A stretch of DNA of 64,000 nt from a plasmid. The stretch's first letter is position 1, and each line of letters begins with the position of its first letter. The position numbers are program-made. This document shows positions 18,001 to 24,000 of this stretch, one piece after another. The stretch lies in NCBI RefSeq assembly GCF_056712565.1, contig NZ_JBWXXM010000002.1; one strand, 5' to 3'.

Positions 18001-21000
18001 CCGCTGTATGAAGGCGATAAAGGCTTTCTTACCTGGAAGACTAACCTTGAAGGCTATTTTTGTGATCCATTGGCTAAAGACAAGATTTGCTCTTATGACG
18101 CCAGTGGGAAAATTATGAAAGACGCTAATGGAAAGGACCTCTGTTACAACTACGAAGAAATTAAGAGTATGCCTGATGCATGTAGTTCTTATAAAAATGA
18201 TGCAGCATGTGTACTCGATAAACAAACATGTGCAGAGGGTTGGTTCGATGAGGGCACTAACAGCTGCTACATGTATGAACAGAAATACACCTGTGACAGA
18301 GGTAAGGATGTAGTTCGTGAGGTTGAATCTTCTACAAATGCCTGTGTTGGCATGATCCCATGTTCTGGAGGAACATGCGAAACTGGGCCAAAGGAAGAGA
18401 ACAACGATTTTGGAAAAGTTGCGGCTTATTCAAACATGGTTCAGTACATGCAGGGCGAAGCCAAATGCGAAGACCCTAACGATGCCAATTCCTGTTCTGT
18501 CTTTGAAGGAAAACCTGAATGGTGTGGTCGTTCAGTAGGCTTTGTAAATGGCCTGGCAAAGACGGACTGCTGCGAAGCACCGCAGGGAACCGCAGGAGCA
18601 CTTGAAGGTATCATGCTTGCCGGATCTATGATCAGAAACACTAACTGGACCAGAGTTAATGCTCAGCTAATAAAATGGACCGGCGGTGATACAGGTACAT
18701 GGGCTTCTATGTCCAATGCGGTCGGTGAGTGGACTGCATCAGCTGGTAAAACAGTAGGGCAAATGTGGAACAATGTCACGAGCTCCTTAACGAGCGTATA
18801 TGAAAACGTCGCTGGTAATCTAAGCAGGGCAGTTGGGTCTTCCGCAACTTCTGGAGGGGCAGGAGGTGCTGGCCAGTTGGCACAGGAAACAATGTCCAGC
18901 TTCGGTATAGGTCAGCTTAAGCAGATGGCAATGAAGAAAGCCTACGAATTGCTACCAGATACAGTTCGAGACTTTGTCTTTAAGAACGTTGCTACTACCG
19001 GAGGAGAGGTTGTCTTCTCGGCTGCGGTTCAAAACTTTATGCTTGCATTAAACGTGATCGGTTGGATTTATACAGCCTATCAGGTCACTAAAATGCTTTT
19101 AGAAATGTTGGTAGCATGCGACCAGAAAGAGATGGAAGCTTCTATTCATAAGAATCAAAAATCCTGTTTTACATTAGATACGGAACGATGCGTCAAATAT
19201 CTGAATGTTGGTTTCACAAAGAAATGCGTTAAAAAAGCAACAGACATGTGCTGTTATAATTCCATGTTGTCACGCGTTATTATGCAACAAGCTTATCCGC
19301 AATTAGGAATAGACCCTGTCGCCTCTAATTGCGTGGGGCTATCAATAAAGCAAATACAGCAACTGGATTTCGATAAAATTGATCTGACGGAGTGGATTAA
19401 TGATGCAGTTCAGGTAGGAGAAGTTCCTGATCAATATTCAAAATTCTCCGAAGAATCAATTGTGGAAAACTTACCATTCCAGAATGAGAACTATCAACTT
19501 CCATCAGAACGTACCAAGGAAGCAATGGGCGGTGAAGAAAATATGATAAAGGCCAGACAAGAAAATGCTCAGGCTATAAAAGAGGAAAATGTAGATTGTA
19601 GCTATTTACCTCGACCGGCCATATGTGAGGTAGGTTCAACTACGCTGGATCCGGTTACGGGCAAGCAGTTGCCGAAATATTGAAGAAGGGGCCGTTAGGC
19701 CCCTTTTTTAATTACTTGGCTTTCAATGTTTTTTCTGGGAAGCCTTTTTTACCGTATTCACCGGTAAAGAGGTAATAATCTTTTCCGTTGATGGAGGCTG
19801 CAACACCCCCTGGAGTTGTTGTATTTGGGCTATCAGAACGGAAAATGATACCCGAAAAATCAGCGCTTGTTTCGTTTCCTTTAAATGGGATGAACACATA
19901 ACGAATTACAGCGTAATCACCAGCGGGAAGGTTTAGCTGAGGAATTTCGGTTCCTGTTGCGGGGCGAATCGCCTGAAAGCTGTACATTGAATCTGTAGGG
20001 AAAACATCAGCATCAGGCTTAGAGGGCAGATCACAGGTACTCCATTTATTGACGACTGCCATATCAATTTTACATGTGGCCAGAGCTGCTTTCTGTTTTT
20101 CAGGGTTGTATCCAAATGAGGCCTGAGTTGCTTTTGTATGCTCAAAAACATACTTAGCTCCTTCACGTACCAAACTTTCATCATTGTAAGGCAATTTTTT
20201 TGGATTGGGGACGAACACTAGGTATTGATTGACCTGGATGTATTCGGCGTCAGAAGAACTGTACAAAGAGCCGAGGCTCATGATCCCAAAACCTTTTAGA
20301 CCGCCTGTTACGTAGCCCATCGAACTATTGATGAGATACTTAGAAAGAAAGTTGTCGGCATCCCCTCCAGGAGTAACCTCTTGCTCCTTAAAATTAACGT
20401 CGAAACCAGCAAACGAATAGGCATTCTTGGCGACAGAATCATTTGCTTTAGCATGCCAGTACTGGCCGTGACTGTACGCATTCAGAGCGGTGCCTGGCGT
20501 AGTGCCGGTGTCACCGGCACAACCCGATAGGGAAAAACCAATGACGACAGAAGAGACCAGAGATACTAAACGTAAAAGTTTCATTTAAAGCCCTTTTTGT
20601 AATGTCTTTTGGAGATGGAACCATTATTCCATAGTCACGCGTTTCACAAACAACCTGATTGCATAAAAAAGGAAAAAAAGTGATTTCCAGTAGAACCAGC
20701 AGTACACAAGAAAAGCGCTTTTATAAAAATGTATAATTATTAAAACGAAGTAATGAGGTTGAAATGGGTAAGCCAACAGAAGAGCAAAGACCTGTTATCG
20801 AGAATGCTAGCGCAAACAATATGGTGATAGCAGCGCCTGGATCAGGCAAATCATTCACCATGATAGAAGCGGTTATATCGATTCTCAAAAAGTATCCATA
20901 TGCAAGAATCGGGATGGTGACCTTTACTCGCGCTGCAACAAACGCACTTGCAGCAAAGTTACAAAAGCGATTGAGCAAGAAGGATCTTGACCGGGTGCTG

Positions 21001-24000
21001 GTGGATACTTTTCACGGACTCGTTAAGAAGCAACTGGACATGATTCGCTGGCCGGGAAAGATGTTGATAGGGCCAGCACAGAGATCTGTCATTCACCGGG
21101 CTTTGAAAGAATCCGGTGTAACGATGAAGTTTGCTGAAGCTGAATTCGTTATTGATGCTATCGGCAGAGAAATGGATACGGATGTGATTTCAGTTCGGCA
21201 TAACAGACAACAGATCCATTTATTTAATACCTATCAGGCGTTATGCCAGAAAGACCATGTGGCGGACCTCAATGCTCTTTCAAAATTTGTTGTCGGTCAA
21301 ATGCATTCGGGAAAAATGCGCACGTTAGATTTGACACATTTGATAGTAGACGAAGTTCAGGATACTGACTCTATACAATTCTCATGGATAGCATTGCATA
21401 CAAGAGCTGGAGTCTATACGAGTATAGTTGGAGACGATGATCAGGCCATCTACTCCTTCAGATCCTCAGGAGGAGTCAAAATATTTCAACAGTTTGAAAA
21501 ACACTTCAGACCTAACATATTTTACTTAAACACATGCTTTAGGTGTGAACCTGAAATTTTAGAGGTGGCCGGAGCACTGATAGGAAAGAATGTTTACCGT
21601 TATGCCAAAGAGTTACGCTCGGCAAAAAAGGGAGGAGGAAAGGTCACTTTTCGTTCATATGTAGATATGGAGGAACAGATACAGGGTATTTTAAGCCTTA
21701 TAAATCAGGATCCACATGGATGGGCAATTCTAAGCCGCAATAATGCTCACTTGGATGAGCTAGAAAGTTTGATCGAACAGCCAGTAATTCGTTACGGAGG
21801 TAAATCATTCTGGGATGAAAAAGAAACAAGCGATGTGTTAAGCCTTATGGCCTTTTTCCGACAATCAAATGATCCTCGCTTAATGAAGAGAGTATTGGCA
21901 TTGTTTGGAGAACAGGAATCAGTTTTGGATGATGTGGCATTGAGTATGAGAGGAAGAAAAGTTACTTTTGGCGACCTTGCCATCCCGGAGGACAGTTCTC
22001 TCGAAACAAAAACATTACATTCAAACTTCGTGCGCTTTACCCAGGAAAGTACTGATAAAGTTGAGATAGCAAAACGTTTCGCCAACCTTACGAAATGGAT
22101 GGAATCGTCGTCAATCAAGATGAGGAGTAATAAAGGTACAGCAACCTTAACAAAAATTGCTTTAGACACTTGTAAACAGTGGGCAGAAAAGACTGGTTGG
22201 ATGAATATGATCAATCGTGCTGCTGCAATGTCATTAGGCCCTAGGAAGAAGGACGAGGAATACAGCCCAGAGAAAGTAGTCCTATCAACCTTGCATGGTT
22301 CAAAGGGTCTTGAGTGGAATAAAGTAATAATAATGAGTTGTAATGCGGATCAGATACCAAGTAAAAGATCAGTTGGGGAGGAGGCAATAGAAGAAGAAAG
22401 ACGTTTGCTTTATGTTGGATTTACGCGTGCAGAAAAGCAACTTTTTGTAATGTGGTATGGTGACCCTTCTTTCTTTTTAAGAGAATGCAGTGAAGAAAAG
22501 ATAAAAGAAGCAGCTAATATTCGAATTTCTCCAGTTTATACAGAATAATTCGATATGGGCATTTACTTATGCTTAAAGCTATAGTATAAAAACAATGAGC
22601 TTAAATATCAGCTCCCAAATTTGAGTAACTTTGCTTAAAGTTACTTTCGCGTTAAGCGTTGATTTAGCCGTGAAAAGCGGCCAGCTTAAACAAGCTGTAA
22701 GACACCACCGGCAAAATGTCACCTTTGTCGCTGGTGCACTTCCCATGCCTGAAAAAGGCAATCTGAATTTACCAAACCGTAACTAATTTAGCTCCTCCTG
22801 GAGCTATTTTTGTTGCGTACTTCTAATGCCAGATAGTATAAATCAGGCGGTTCATAGCTTACGGGAGATGAATGACAGGCTTTGCCTTCGTGTTGAAACA
22901 AAAAATTGTTTCTTCCTTCTTACTATATATAGGTGACCCCAAATGTCTAAAAATAAAGCTCGCAGTAAAGCCCTTCATCAAACCTTTAGTGAAATTATTC
23001 CAGAGATGGATAAGGCGCTAAACAAACAGCTCTTAGAAGTTCTGATGAAATATACAGAACGTGATAATGAACTGATTGTTATTTTGAATGAGGACGGCCC
23101 AAATATCATTGAACTTAAGTCTCTTAAGCCTGTGTCTTTGTTGGCCGAAAAGCTTTCTGCTTATTCAAGCTATTATCATGTGGATGTTGTGGAGCTCGTG
23201 GTCAAGAAAATTGATTTCGAAGGAGCTTATAAGCTTCTTAAAGCTTCCCCAGATGTACCACTTTTTAAAAGCTTAACTGAACTGGATAAATATCTTGTTG
23301 AGGAGTTTGAAAAATACGGATTAAATTCATTTCTTGACGTGGATAATCTGGATTACTCACTTGAAAAAGCCAGTGAACTCAAAAATGAGCAGTTAATAAA
23401 TTGGGTTTCGGACATCATTTGCAAACGTGAAAAATTAACTTTACGTAAGCGTTTTGATGTCGCAGTAAAGGCCCACTACGAAAATGTAGAAAAAATGTAT
23501 GATACCATTCGTCCGTTAATGAAAAAACTGGGTTTCCCAGAAGATCTCATGACGCACACCTTTAGTGAGTTAAGCGTTTTTGAAACTAAAGGATGGGACC
23601 ATGCAATAAAATCGAAAATTGAGACTCTCGCTAAGCGTGAAACTCAATATTTAGATGATGCGGCTAAAGCAGAGAATCGACGTCTTGTAACAGAGAAGTT
23701 GGAGAACTCTTTAGCGATTGCACCAACTAAACCAACAAGAAATTGGTTACATATTGCCGGAATTGCCTGTTTGGTAGTCTGCACGTTCATGTATGTAACT
23801 AATAAATTTATTTAATCCTGTTAAGGGGGAACCCTAACGGGGCTTCTCTTTGAACAAATCGAGGAGCGGAAAATGTCATATCTTGAATATATCAATGAAG
23901 TAAAAGTGTCCGGGATAGTTATCAGTGCTGTGGAGAAAAAAATGACTGACCAGAGTATAGGTTTGTTAATAAAGCTCAAAAATAGGATGCAGACAGAAGT

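What the first reader, a model, noticed from the sequence alone, without database searches (positions are those of the whole stretch)
20764..22548. Stand-alone UvrD-like helicase between transfer and accessory regions
A monocistronic helicase with its own promoter gap and downstream hairpins could serve replication or establishment, or could be a helicase-type anti-defence factor.
Basis: inference. Interest (0 to 1): 0.35.

Follow-up and report, generated by a model that had tools for sequence, protein, structure and literature searches.

The report
Known IncHI plasmid transfer helicase TrhI
The flagged gene is real and is an intact UvrD-like DNA helicase, but it is already catalogued as trhI, the conjugal-transfer helicase of IncHI resistance plasmids, so the finding is ordinary; the "hairpins" behind it turned out to be a conserved, unannotated structured RNA that is more interesting than the gene.

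Summary
It is a complete UvrD/Rep/PcrA-type (SF1A) helicase with every catalytic motif intact. It has no extra nuclease or other C-terminal domain.

The window is IncHI2 plasmid backbone, 100% identical to pSTM6-275. RefSeq already names this gene "trhI: IncHI-type conjugal transfer helicase TrhI". It closes the Tra2 transfer region (trhU-trhN-lipoprotein-trhI). More than 1,300 PLSDB plasmids match the region at DNA level (IncHI2 and IncHI1), and IncHI1B-type Klebsiella plasmids carry a 49-51% identical homologue.

Remote homologues (26-33% identity) lie beside MOBH relaxase/coupling-protein modules or mobI. The IncHI2 MobH relaxase has no recognisable helicase domain. The best mechanism is therefore a separately encoded 3'-5' helicase that unwinds DNA for the MOBH relaxosome, as PcrA does for RepD. 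This mechanism is inferred, not shown. I found no support for an anti-defence role: there is no Gabija partner gene.

Two details are new. The family lacks UvrD's separation-pin hairpin and its C-terminal tail. The 394-nt gap downstream holds a conserved promoter, a structured RNA of about 220 nt with strong covariation and no Rfam match, a terminator, and an ultra-conserved block.

Verdict: already known. Interest is low for the gene and moderate for the RNA by-product.

The parts
20764..22548 (+). trhI coding sequence: a 594-aa SF1A (UvrD/Rep/PcrA-like) helicase, the IncHI-type conjugal transfer helicase TrhI
   Evidence: ORF listing. Pfam UvrD-helicase plus UvrD_C. 100% identity to plasmid CDSs annotated trhI. 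Motifs I-VI align with UvrD 3lfu/2is1 and are invariant across 21 family members. AF2 model pLDDT 88.7, with top Foldseek hits UvrD, Rep and PcrA.
20585..20763 (.). Divergent intergenic region between the lipoprotein gene and trhI. It holds a perfect -10 TATAAT at 20732-20737 (+) and the GAGG Shine-Dalgarno at 20755-20758. No good -35 box is visible.
   Evidence: Sequence. TATAAT and GAGG are conserved between IncHI2 and IncHI1 although the rest of the region has diverged. The consensus promoter scan did not call a + strand promoter here, so promoter assignment is an inference.
19712..20584 (-). Divergently transcribed 290-aa predicted lipoprotein (signal peptide ending in the lipobox LSGC). 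It is a conserved neighbour of trhI in IncHI plasmids, and its function is unknown.
   Evidence: ORF. Annotated 'lipoprotein' in IncHI1. 43% identical counterpart in an IncHI1B plasmid. No Pfam or PADLOC hit. Not similar to the gene at the same position in Vibrio p380.
22562..22590 (+). Conserved sigma-70-like promoter P1 immediately after the trhI stop codon: TTTACT (22562-22567), a 17-nt spacer, then TATAAA (22585-22590)
   Evidence: Sequence. TTTAC(A/T)-N16-17-TATA(A/C) is kept in IncHI2, IncHI1, IncHI1B-type and metagenomic relatives while the flanking sequence diverges. The scan found an overlapping, weaker consensus match at 22556-22585. No transcription data are available.
22597..22817 (+). 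Unannotated structured RNA element of about 220 nt. It consists of a chain of hairpins ending in an intrinsic-terminator-like hairpin (22789-22806) plus a T-run. It is either an independent sRNA, the structured 3' UTR of trhI, or an attenuator leader for the downstream operon.
   Evidence: Fold z = -6.0 on the + strand against -3.6 on the - strand. Terminator-like site. 86% identity between IncHI2 and IncHI1, against 73.6% for trhI itself, whose synonymous sites are saturated. Covariation: 6 double-changed pairs among 8 sequences with 0 of 500 shuffles reaching the observed value; 25 of 34 pairs among 16 sequences, 94.4% paired against 33-47% in slid controls. The covariance model scores 175.6 bits at 22664-22817. 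No Rfam family matches at E<=1.
22813..22942 (+). Ultra-conserved block upstream of the next gene. It contains promoter-like P2, TTGCGT (22813-22818), an 18-nt spacer, then TATAAA (22837-22842), followed by a conserved leader (TCAGGCGGTTCATAGCTTACGGGAGATGAATGACAGGCTTTGCC) up to the ATG at 22943.
   Evidence: 98% identity between IncHI1 and IncHI2 over 22821-22880, the highest in 8 kb compared. The core is kept even in IncHI1B-type plasmids whose helicase is only 49% identical. The leader alone does not fold better than shuffles, z = -0.17.

Best explanation
The gene is trhI, the backbone-encoded conjugal-transfer helicase of IncHI plasmids; here the plasmid is IncHI2.

Most likely mechanism: TrhI is the DNA-unwinding motor of the H-type (MOBH) DNA-transfer machinery. 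The MobH/TraI relaxase nicks oriT in the distant Tra1 region and stays attached to the 5' end of the transferred strand, but it has no helicase domain of its own. TrhI is an SF1A enzyme with expected 3'-to-5' polarity. It would load on the retained strand at the nick and unwind the plasmid ahead of the relaxosome, feeding the T-strand to the coupling protein. This is how PcrA, UvrD or Rep work with rolling-circle initiators (RepD/RepC, phiX174 gpA). Because the family lacks the UvrD separation-pin hairpin and C-terminal tail, it probably depends on a partner, the relaxase or an accessory protein, to couple translocation to strand separation.

Shown here: identity with trhI, intact and conserved helicase motifs, purifying selection, conserved synteny, linkage of remote homologues to MOBH Dtr genes, and absence of a helicase domain in the IncHI2 relaxase.

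Inferred: polarity, the site of action at oriT, partner dependence, and any requirement for transfer.
For: Identity and distribution:
- 100% DNA identity to IncHI2 plasmids that annotate this CDS as 'trhI: IncHI-type conjugal transfer helicase TrhI'.
- 1,360 of 1,398 matching PLSDB records carry at least 80% of the region in one place.
- In the tblastn search 1,098 records carry a protein at least 99% identical. IncHI1 copies are 82% identical and IncHI1B-type copies 49-51%.

Position: the gene ends the Tra2 block trhF-trhW-trhU-trhN-lipoprotein-trhI. This order is kept in IncHI1, IncHI1B-type and five metagenomic relatives.

Active enzyme:
- Motifs Q, I, Ia, Ib, II (DEVQD), III (GDDDQAIY), IV, V and VI align with UvrD.
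- These motifs are invariant in 21 family members down to 26% identity.
- IncHI2 against IncHI1: pN = 0.11 and pS = 0.83, i.e. saturated synonymous sites.
- AF2 model pLDDT 88.7, with best PDB matches UvrD, Rep and PcrA.

Link to MOBH DNA processing:
- Three of four remote homologues examined lie next to TraI_2 (MOBH) relaxase, T4CP and DtrJ-like genes. One of these elements has a VirB-type rather than an F-type T4SS.
- The fourth homologue and Vibrio p380 keep the TraU-TraN-x-helicase order.
- In a Marinobacter plasmid the helicase follows mobI(A/C) in the same orientation.
- PLSDB types the IncHI plasmids as MOBH.

Need for a helicase in trans: the 1,048-aa IncHI2 MobH relaxase shows only the TraI_2 domain (residues 106-302) and no P-loop helicase domain.
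Against: - I could not read any experimental paper on trhI. Lawley et al. 2003 (PMC145343) is not held. The word 'transfer' therefore rests on the annotation.
- From memory only, that paper's abstract lists 11 essential Tra2 mating-pair genes and trhI is not among them. TrhI may be dispensable or auxiliary.
- In IncHI plasmids trhI is about 155 kb away from oriT and mobH, and it is transcribed separately from the trh operons.
- The linkage to MOBH rests on a handful of sampled contigs, not a systematic census.
- MOBP plasmids such as RP4 transfer without any plasmid helicase, so a host helicase could suffice.
- Some plasmids carry IS insertions in or beside trhI, and truncated variants exist (P0011, P0013, P0021, P0022). 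Their transfer ability is unknown.
- The missing separation pin could mean TrhI is mainly a translocase or protein remover rather than an unwinding enzyme.
Confidence: 0.6

Rival explanations
1. TrhI is a plasmid-maintenance helicase. It would act as a Rep/UvrD-like accessory motor that helps replication forks through protein roadblocks or resolves replication-transcription conflicts on a plasmid of 200-300 kb. Its link to conjugation would then be only positional.
For: It has the same fold and motifs as Rep and UvrD, which do this job on the chromosome. It has its own promoter region outside the trh operons. A Tus-like terminus-binding protein and partition genes lie in the same backbone block. 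It is a conserved backbone gene.
Against: It lacks the C-terminal tail that UvrD uses for partner contacts, and it lacks the pin hairpin. Remote homologues travel with relaxase, T4CP and mobI genes, not with replication genes. Hosts already encode Rep and UvrD.
Confidence: 0.15
2. TrhI acts in the recipient or in recombinational repair during establishment. It would process the incoming single strand or its ends together with nucleases and SSB-like proteins, rather than unwinding in the donor.
For: Remote homologues sit near PD-(D/E)XK nuclease and SSB-like genes, and one is followed directly by an ERCC4-HhH nuclease gene. The downstream IncHI operon encodes a 125-aa protein, an AAA_5 ATPase, DUF3150, VWA and toprim proteins of unknown role.
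Against: In IncHI plasmids no nuclease gene is adjacent to or fused with trhI. The gene is not in a leading region next to oriT, which lies about 155 kb away. Nothing indicates early expression or transfer of the protein.
Confidence: 0.15
3. TrhI is a helicase-type defence or anti-defence factor, for example Gabija GajB-like, or a decoy against host nucleases.
For: PADLOC GajB profiles match at up to 143 bits (E = 3e-42), and one DRT-associated helicase profile also matches.
Against: These scores are no better than those for generic UvrD, Rep and PcrA models, which reach 175-180 bits. No GajA (OLD/TOPRIM nuclease) or other defence partner is adjacent; the neighbours have no PADLOC hit. The synteny is with T4SS and Dtr genes across the whole family.
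Confidence: 0.04

Closest known systems
TrhI of IncHI1 plasmid R27 / IncHI2 R478 (RefSeq name 'IncHI-type conjugal transfer helicase TrhI')
   Same: It is the same gene. The protein is 99-100% identical to IncHI2 entries and 82% identical to IncHI1 entries. It has the same length (594 aa) and the same place after trhN and a divergent lipoprotein gene.
   Different: Nothing differs. This is a further copy of a catalogued gene.
E. coli UvrD (helicase II), Rep, and Geobacillus/Staphylococcus PcrA (SF1A 3'-5' helicases)
   Same: All seven helicase motifs and the 1A/1B/2A/2B architecture are shared. These are the best sequence and structure matches. PcrA with RepD/RepC, and Rep with phiX174 gpA, are the mechanistic precedent for an SF1A helicase recruited by a nicking initiator.
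   Different: Identity is only about 20-25%, and scores fall far below the equivalog cut-offs (175-180 bits against 911-1168). The 11-residue separation-pin hairpin (UvrD ETRRLYGKEVY, Y621) is deleted. The C-terminal tail of about 70 aa is absent, and the 2B subdomain is shorter. The gene is plasmid-borne and linked to conjugation genes.
Relaxase-fused conjugative helicases TraI (F plasmid) and TrwC (R388), MOBF
   Same: The presumed job is the same: unwinding the plasmid from the nick at oriT during transfer.
   Different: TraI and TrwC are SF1B (RecD-like, 5'-3') motors fused to the relaxase, and they travel on the transferred strand. TrhI is a separate SF1A protein. RecD-type models match it only marginally (E = 2e-4 and 0.014). 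It has no relaxase domain and would have to track the opposite strand.
Gabija GajB
   Same: It is a UvrD-like helicase of similar size, and PADLOC profiles match.
   Different: There is no GajA partner gene and no defence-island context.

Membership tests
SF1A UvrD/Rep/PcrA-like helicases | Complete set of helicase motifs (Q, I/Walker A, Ia, Ib, II DExx, III, IV, V, VI) | tested here: met
   HMMER alignment to UvrD 3lfu/2is1 over residues 6-564. G26, G28, K29, D196, E197, Q199, D200, G223-Q227, R260, T509, H511, K514-L516, E545, R547 and T554-A556 are invariant in 21 relatives.
SF1A UvrD/Rep/PcrA-like helicases | Four-subdomain fold (1A, 1B, 2A, 2B) | tested here: met
   AF2 model pLDDT 88.7, pTM 0.82. 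Foldseek top hits are UvrD 2is1 (E = 3e-30, TM 0.68), Rep 1uaa and PcrA 3pjr.
SF1A UvrD/Rep/PcrA-like helicases | Separation-pin beta-hairpin after motif VI (UvrD residues about 616-626, Y621) | tested here: not met
   Alignment with E. coli K-12 UvrD shows an 11-residue gap in TrhI exactly at ETRRLYGKEVY. All six other family members aligned have 0-4 residues there. Local HMMER alignments stop at TrhI residue 564. The role of this hairpin as the pin is from my knowledge of the UvrD-DNA structures (2is1 series).
Orthologues of UvrD, Rep or PcrA proper | Score above the NCBIfam equivalog cut-off, and the C-terminal Tudor-like tail | tested here: not met
   Rep 179.9 bits against a cut-off of 951; UvrD 175-176 against 965-1144; PcrA 158.5 against 911. 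No PF21196 tudor domain is present, unlike the PcrA-type hits P0033-P0040. The tail is absent in the alignment.
TrhI (IncHI-type conjugal transfer helicase) | Near-identity to proteins so named, and position at the end of Tra2 after trhU-trhN | tested here: met
TrhI (IncHI-type conjugal transfer helicase) | Contribution to conjugal transfer (mutant phenotype) | not testable with these tools
   The primary papers are not held. Open-access papers only list the gene.
Helicase-nuclease fusions (AddA/RecB type) | C-terminal PD-(D/E)XK nuclease domain | tested here: not met
   The protein ends 29 residues after UvrD_C. No nuclease family appears in Pfam or NCBIfam, and the AddA/RecB matches cover only the helicase core.
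Gabija (GajA + GajB) | UvrD-like GajB encoded next to an OLD-family ATPase/TOPRIM nuclease GajA | tested here: not met
   GajB profiles hit at 143 bits, but neither neighbour has any PADLOC hit. The neighbours are a lipoprotein and a hypothetical protein.
Relaxase-associated SF1B conjugative helicases (TraI_F / TrwC) | RecD-like SF1B motor fused to an HUH relaxase domain | tested here: not met
   There is no relaxase domain. RecD2 and RecD models match only at E = 2e-4 and 0.014, against 1e-51 for UvrD.
Rfam RNA families (for the downstream structured element) | Match to any of 4,227 covariance models | tested here: not met
   No match at E<=1 in 19600-23100 on either strand.

The most novel reading that the evidence does not exclude
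The most novel reading has two parts.

(a) TrhI-clade helicases are a distinct, pin-less and tail-less branch of SF1A that co-evolves with MOBH (TraI_2) relaxases as their dedicated, separately encoded unwinding motor. This would be the split, opposite-polarity counterpart of the fused relaxase-helicases of MOBF systems.

(b) The structured RNA of about 220 nt and the ultra-conserved block directly downstream of trhI (22597-22942) form a new plasmid-borne regulatory RNA or leader. It would control the conserved AAA_5-DUF3150-VWA-toprim operon of IncHI plasmids, possibly as part of their temperature-dependent behaviour.
Probability: 0.35. Interest if true: 0.5.

Novelty: already known. Interest (0 to 1): 0.15.

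Why it matters
IncHI plasmids are major carriers of multidrug, colistin (mcr-1) and heavy-metal resistance in Salmonella, E. coli, Enterobacter and Klebsiella. The trhI gene itself is catalogued, so re-finding it adds nothing.

What could matter is mechanistic. MOBH relaxases (IncHI, IncA/C, SXT/R391, many ICEs) have no helicase domain, and it is unclear what unwinds their DNA. The comparative linkage seen here points to TrhI-like helicases, and it makes that question directly testable with a K29A mutant and a relaxase-helicase interaction assay.

The unannotated, covarying RNA and the ultra-conserved block behind trhI are candidate regulatory elements of a conserved IncHI operon of unknown function. 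They could be followed up with existing R27 transcriptome data.

Tried and rejected
- Literature. Direct look-ups of the R27 Tra2 paper and the R27 genome paper failed because they are not held. Full-text searches for trhI found only gene lists and maps, with no functional data. A search for MOBH plus UvrD found only that IncC backbones carry a 'uvrD' gene next to traF-H-G. I did not test whether that gene belongs to the TrhI clade. IncC plasmids did not visibly add to the tblastn hit counts at E<=1e-10.
- Accessory C-terminal domain: rejected.
- Gabija or other defence membership: rejected for lack of a partner gene.
- Rfam match for the hairpin region: none.
- Repeated promoter motif. I tested whether the -10-like word ATAGTATAAA, present at both P1 and P2, is a repeated regulatory motif across the window. 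It gives 5 matches with one mismatch against 4.7 expected, so it is not enriched.
- 5' UTR structure. The leader after P2 alone does not fold better than shuffles, z = -0.17.
- Wider distribution of the RNA. The covariance model did not find the RNA in the remote helicase loci L003, L004 and L006-L009, nor elsewhere in the window. The RNA is therefore specific to the IncHI lineage and is not a general companion of the helicase.
- The first blind look for Tra1 in pSTM6-275 (100-150 kb) hit only resistance islands. Tra1 was found at 183-202 kb.
- One locus from the pattern scan (L043) was a chance match and was excluded.

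
Full report
**1. The observation**

The ORF is there as described: 20764..22548, + strand, ATG start, 594 aa. A GAGG ribosome-binding site lies 6 nt upstream of the ATG.

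Pfam places UvrD-helicase (E = 9e-33), AAA_19 and UvrD_C (E = 4e-32) over residues 6-565. NCBIfam ranks Rep, UvrD and PcrA first (158-180 bits). All three are far below their equivalog cut-offs of 911-1168 bits. The protein is therefore a UvrD-like helicase but not an orthologue of any of them.

The gene stands alone:
- The upstream gene (19712..20584) is on the other strand, leaving a 179-bp gap.
- The next + strand gene starts at 22943, 394 nt after the stop codon.

**2. What it is**

A 3-kb query around the gene is 100% identical to many IncHI2 plasmids of E. coli, Salmonella, Enterobacter and Klebsiella. These plasmids annotate the CDS as "trhI: IncHI-type conjugal transfer helicase TrhI".

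The window is collinear with pSTM6-275 (IncHI2A, MOBH, MPF_F). Its Tra2 region runs parA/B, parM, htdA, rsp, trhF, trbC/trhW, trhU, trhN, a lipoprotein gene on the - strand, then trhI.

Distribution in PLSDB:
- 1,398 plasmid records match the region, and 1,360 carry at least 80% of it in one place.
- By tblastn, 1,098 records have a protein at least 99% identical.
- IncHI1 copies are 82% identical, and IncHI1B-type Klebsiella plasmids 49-51%.
- The 5.8-billion-protein collection adds intermediates at 54-78% identity and remote members at 26-33%.

The finding is thus a re-discovery of a named backbone gene.

**3. Is the enzyme intact, and is anything attached?**

Every SF1 motif aligns with UvrD: Q (EEQR), I (APGSGKS), Ia, Ib (TFHG), II (DEVQD), III (GDDDQAIYSFR), IV (CFRC), V (TLHGSKGLEW) and VI (EEERRLLYVGFTRA). 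The catalytic residues are invariant in a 21-member alignment reaching 26% identity.

Between IncHI2 and IncHI1 the gene is 73.6% identical in DNA and 82% in protein. With pN = 0.11 and pS = 0.83 (saturated), this indicates strong purifying selection.

An AlphaFold model built on this alignment is confident (pLDDT 88.7, pTM 0.82). Its best PDB matches are UvrD, Rep and PcrA, followed by the helicase cores of AdnB, AddA and RecB. No further domain exists, because the protein ends 29 residues after UvrD_C.

An alignment with the real E. coli K-12 UvrD shows three differences shared by the whole family:
- an 11-residue deletion exactly at ETRRLYGKEVY, which is the beta-hairpin that I know from the UvrD-DNA structures as the strand-separation pin (Y621);
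- loss of the C-terminal tail of about 70 residues;
- a shorter 2B subdomain.

**4. Context in relatives, and how it probably works**

The order TraN, a gene on the - strand, then the helicase is kept in:
- IncHI1;
- IncHI1B-type plasmids, there with IS200/IS605 elements and a toxin-antitoxin pair inserted;
- five metagenomic relatives;
- a Vibrio plasmid at 29% identity and a metagenomic contig at 29-30% identity.

More telling, three other remote homologues (26-29% identity) lie directly beside a TraI_2 (MOBH) relaxase, a coupling protein and a DtrJ-like gene. One of these elements uses a VirB-type T4SS rather than an F-type one. In a Marinobacter plasmid the helicase follows mobI(A/C), a gene for a PH-domain protein, and precedes an ERCC4-HhH nuclease gene. 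The helicase therefore travels with the H-type DNA-processing genes rather than with one pilus type.

In IncHI2 itself the Dtr module (mobI, a hypothetical gene, mobH, traD) lies about 155 kb away in Tra1. The 1,048-aa MobH relaxase shows only the TraI_2 domain at residues 106-302 and no P-loop helicase domain.

My best explanation is that TrhI supplies in trans the unwinding activity that MOBF relaxases carry as a fused domain. As an SF1A enzyme it should move 3'-5'. It would then track the retained strand away from the nick, as PcrA does with RepD or Rep with phiX174 gpA. Without a pin or a tail it may need the relaxosome as a partner.

Identity is certain. This mechanism is inferred, and I put it at about 0.6.

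Caveats:
- I could not read the primary R27 papers.
- From memory, trhI is not among the 11 essential Tra2 mating-pair genes named in the abstract of Lawley et al. 2003, so it may be auxiliary.
- A few plasmids carry IS elements in or next to the gene, and truncated variants exist.

**5. Rivals**

- An accessory replication or maintenance helicase is possible (0.15). It does not explain the linkage to relaxase genes.
- A role in the recipient or in recombination is suggested by PD-(D/E)XK, SSB-like and ERCC4 neighbours in remote relatives. Such neighbours are absent in IncHI (0.15).
- The anti-defence reading rests only on GajB profile hits of 143 bits. These are no better than generic UvrD similarity, and no GajA-like partner is present (0.04).

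**6. The "promoter gap" and "downstream hairpins"**

Upstream, a perfect TATAAT (20732-20737) and the Shine-Dalgarno sequence are conserved between IncHI1 and IncHI2 while the rest of the gap has diverged. No -35 box is evident, and the consensus scan called no + strand promoter there.

The downstream gap is the surprise. It is more conserved than the genes around it: 86% identity against 73.6% for trhI, peaking at 98% over 22821-22880. It is unannotated in nearly all of the listed matching records.

The gap contains, in order:
- a conserved promoter-like pair right after the stop codon, TTTACT-17-TATAAA at 22562-22590;
- a chain of hairpins, with fold z = -6.0 on the + strand against -3.6 on the - strand;
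- a terminator-like hairpin with a T-run at 22789-22816;
- a second promoter-like pair, TTGCGT-18-TATAAA at 22813-22842, followed by a leader conserved even in IncHI1B-type plasmids.

I collected 30 further loci with a DNA pattern scan and tested the structure of the 3' half:
- In 8 sequences, 97.8% of cells are paired and 6 pairs changed on both sides. None of 500 shuffles reached these values, and slid controls gave 30-47% paired.
- A covariance model then recovered the element in every IncHI1B-like locus, always just after the helicase gene. It found it nowhere else in the window and not in the remote helicase loci.
- In the resulting 16-sequence alignment, 94.4% of cells are paired and 25 of 34 pairs show compensatory changes. 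This alignment is fitted to the model and includes one antisense hit, so the numbers lean in favour of the structure.

Several G-U pairs on the + strand argue for a + strand RNA rather than a DNA structure. Rfam has no match.

The element could be an independent sRNA of about 220 nt, the structured 3' end of the trhI mRNA, or an attenuator leader for the operon starting at 22943. I cannot decide among these without transcript mapping.

**7. Verdict**

The object is an already known gene, so interest in the finding as given is low (0.15).

Three things are worth keeping:
- the comparative case that TrhI-like, pin-less SF1A helicases are the partners of MOBH relaxases;
- the unannotated structured RNA behind trhI;
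- the ultra-conserved block that follows that RNA.

Noticed in passing
window 22597-22817 (+): Unannotated structured RNA of about 220 nt directly after trhI. It has a conserved promoter (22562-22590), six or more hairpins kept by compensatory changes, and a terminator-like hairpin at 22789-22806 plus a T-run. No Rfam family matches. It is present in IncHI1, IncHI2 and IncHI1B-like plasmids only, always at this position.
   Followed up: yes
window 22813-22942 (+): Block of about 70-130 nt that is the most conserved stretch in 8 kb compared (98% identity between IncHI1 and IncHI2 over 22821-22880). Its core is kept in IncHI1B-type plasmids. It contains a promoter-like TTGCGT-18-TATAAA pair and a leader that alone does not fold better than shuffles. 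This suggests sequence-specific recognition by a protein or another RNA.
   Followed up: partly
window 22778-22925 (-): The covariance model of the + strand RNA also scores 33 bits (E about 1e-6) on the minus strand of the adjacent region, overlapping the terminator hairpin. Similar antisense hits occur in four related loci. It may be an effect of the palindromic hairpins or may reflect a partly mirror-symmetric arrangement. It remains unexplained.
   Followed up: no
window 23816-23872, 24251-24310, 25289-25345: The short intergenic spacers of the downstream operon each hold a hairpin, for example GGAGAAATCCC-TTCAT-GGGATTTCTCC followed by TTTTGG at about 24270-24305. Two of these spacers (24251-24310 and 25289-25345) are 87-93% identical between IncHI1 and IncHI2, above the roughly 70% of the flanking coding sequence. 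They are possibly mRNA-processing, stabilising or attenuating elements.
   Followed up: partly
window 22943-31630; loci L006, L009, L002, L005: The gene set downstream of trhI (a 290-aa and a 125-aa protein, a 325-aa protein, an AAA_5 ATPase, DUF3150, a VWA/CobT-like protein and a toprim protein) is conserved across IncHI types. Parts of it (AAA_5, DUF3150, VWA/CobT, Toprim) recur near the TrhI-like helicase and the MOBH relaxase in very distant elements. It looks like a conserved module of unknown function on H-type mobile elements.
   Followed up: partly
window 19712-20584 (-): Divergent 290-aa predicted lipoprotein (lipobox LSGC) with no Pfam or PADLOC hit. It is a constant partner of trhI in IncHI plasmids (43% identity in IncHI1B). 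A gene of similar size and orientation occupies the same slot in Vibrio p380 but shows no detectable similarity.
   Followed up: partly
TrhI residues about 564-569 (window about 22453-22470) and the C-terminus: The whole TrhI family lacks the 11-residue beta-hairpin that forms the separation pin in UvrD (ETRRLYGKEVY). It also lacks the C-terminal tail of about 70 aa, and its 2B subdomain is shorter. This is a compact SF1A variant that may need a partner to unwind DNA.
   Followed up: partly
locus L003 (Marinobacter sp. SBY-1 plasmid) 10507-14921: Same-strand cluster of four genes: mobI(A/C), a bacterial PH-domain protein, a TrhI-like helicase (32% identity), and an ERCC4 plus helix-hairpin-helix nuclease. 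MOB-suite types this plasmid as non-mobilizable although it carries TraH, TraG and MobI.
   Followed up: partly
plasmid hits H1-H5, H26, H39 (e.g. NZ_MG014720.1, NZ_CP032079.1): Some IncHI2 plasmids carry IS elements (IS903B, ISVsa5, IS1203, ISKpn26, IS3 family) inside or beside trhI. In NZ_MG014720.1, IS903B splits the coding sequence. Whether such plasmids still transfer would be a natural test of the gene's importance.
   Followed up: no
window about 45000-64000: G+C content rises from 0.34-0.46 in the IncHI backbone to 0.49-0.56 from about 46 kb onward. This indicates inserted accessory DNA. I did not examine it.
   Followed up: no
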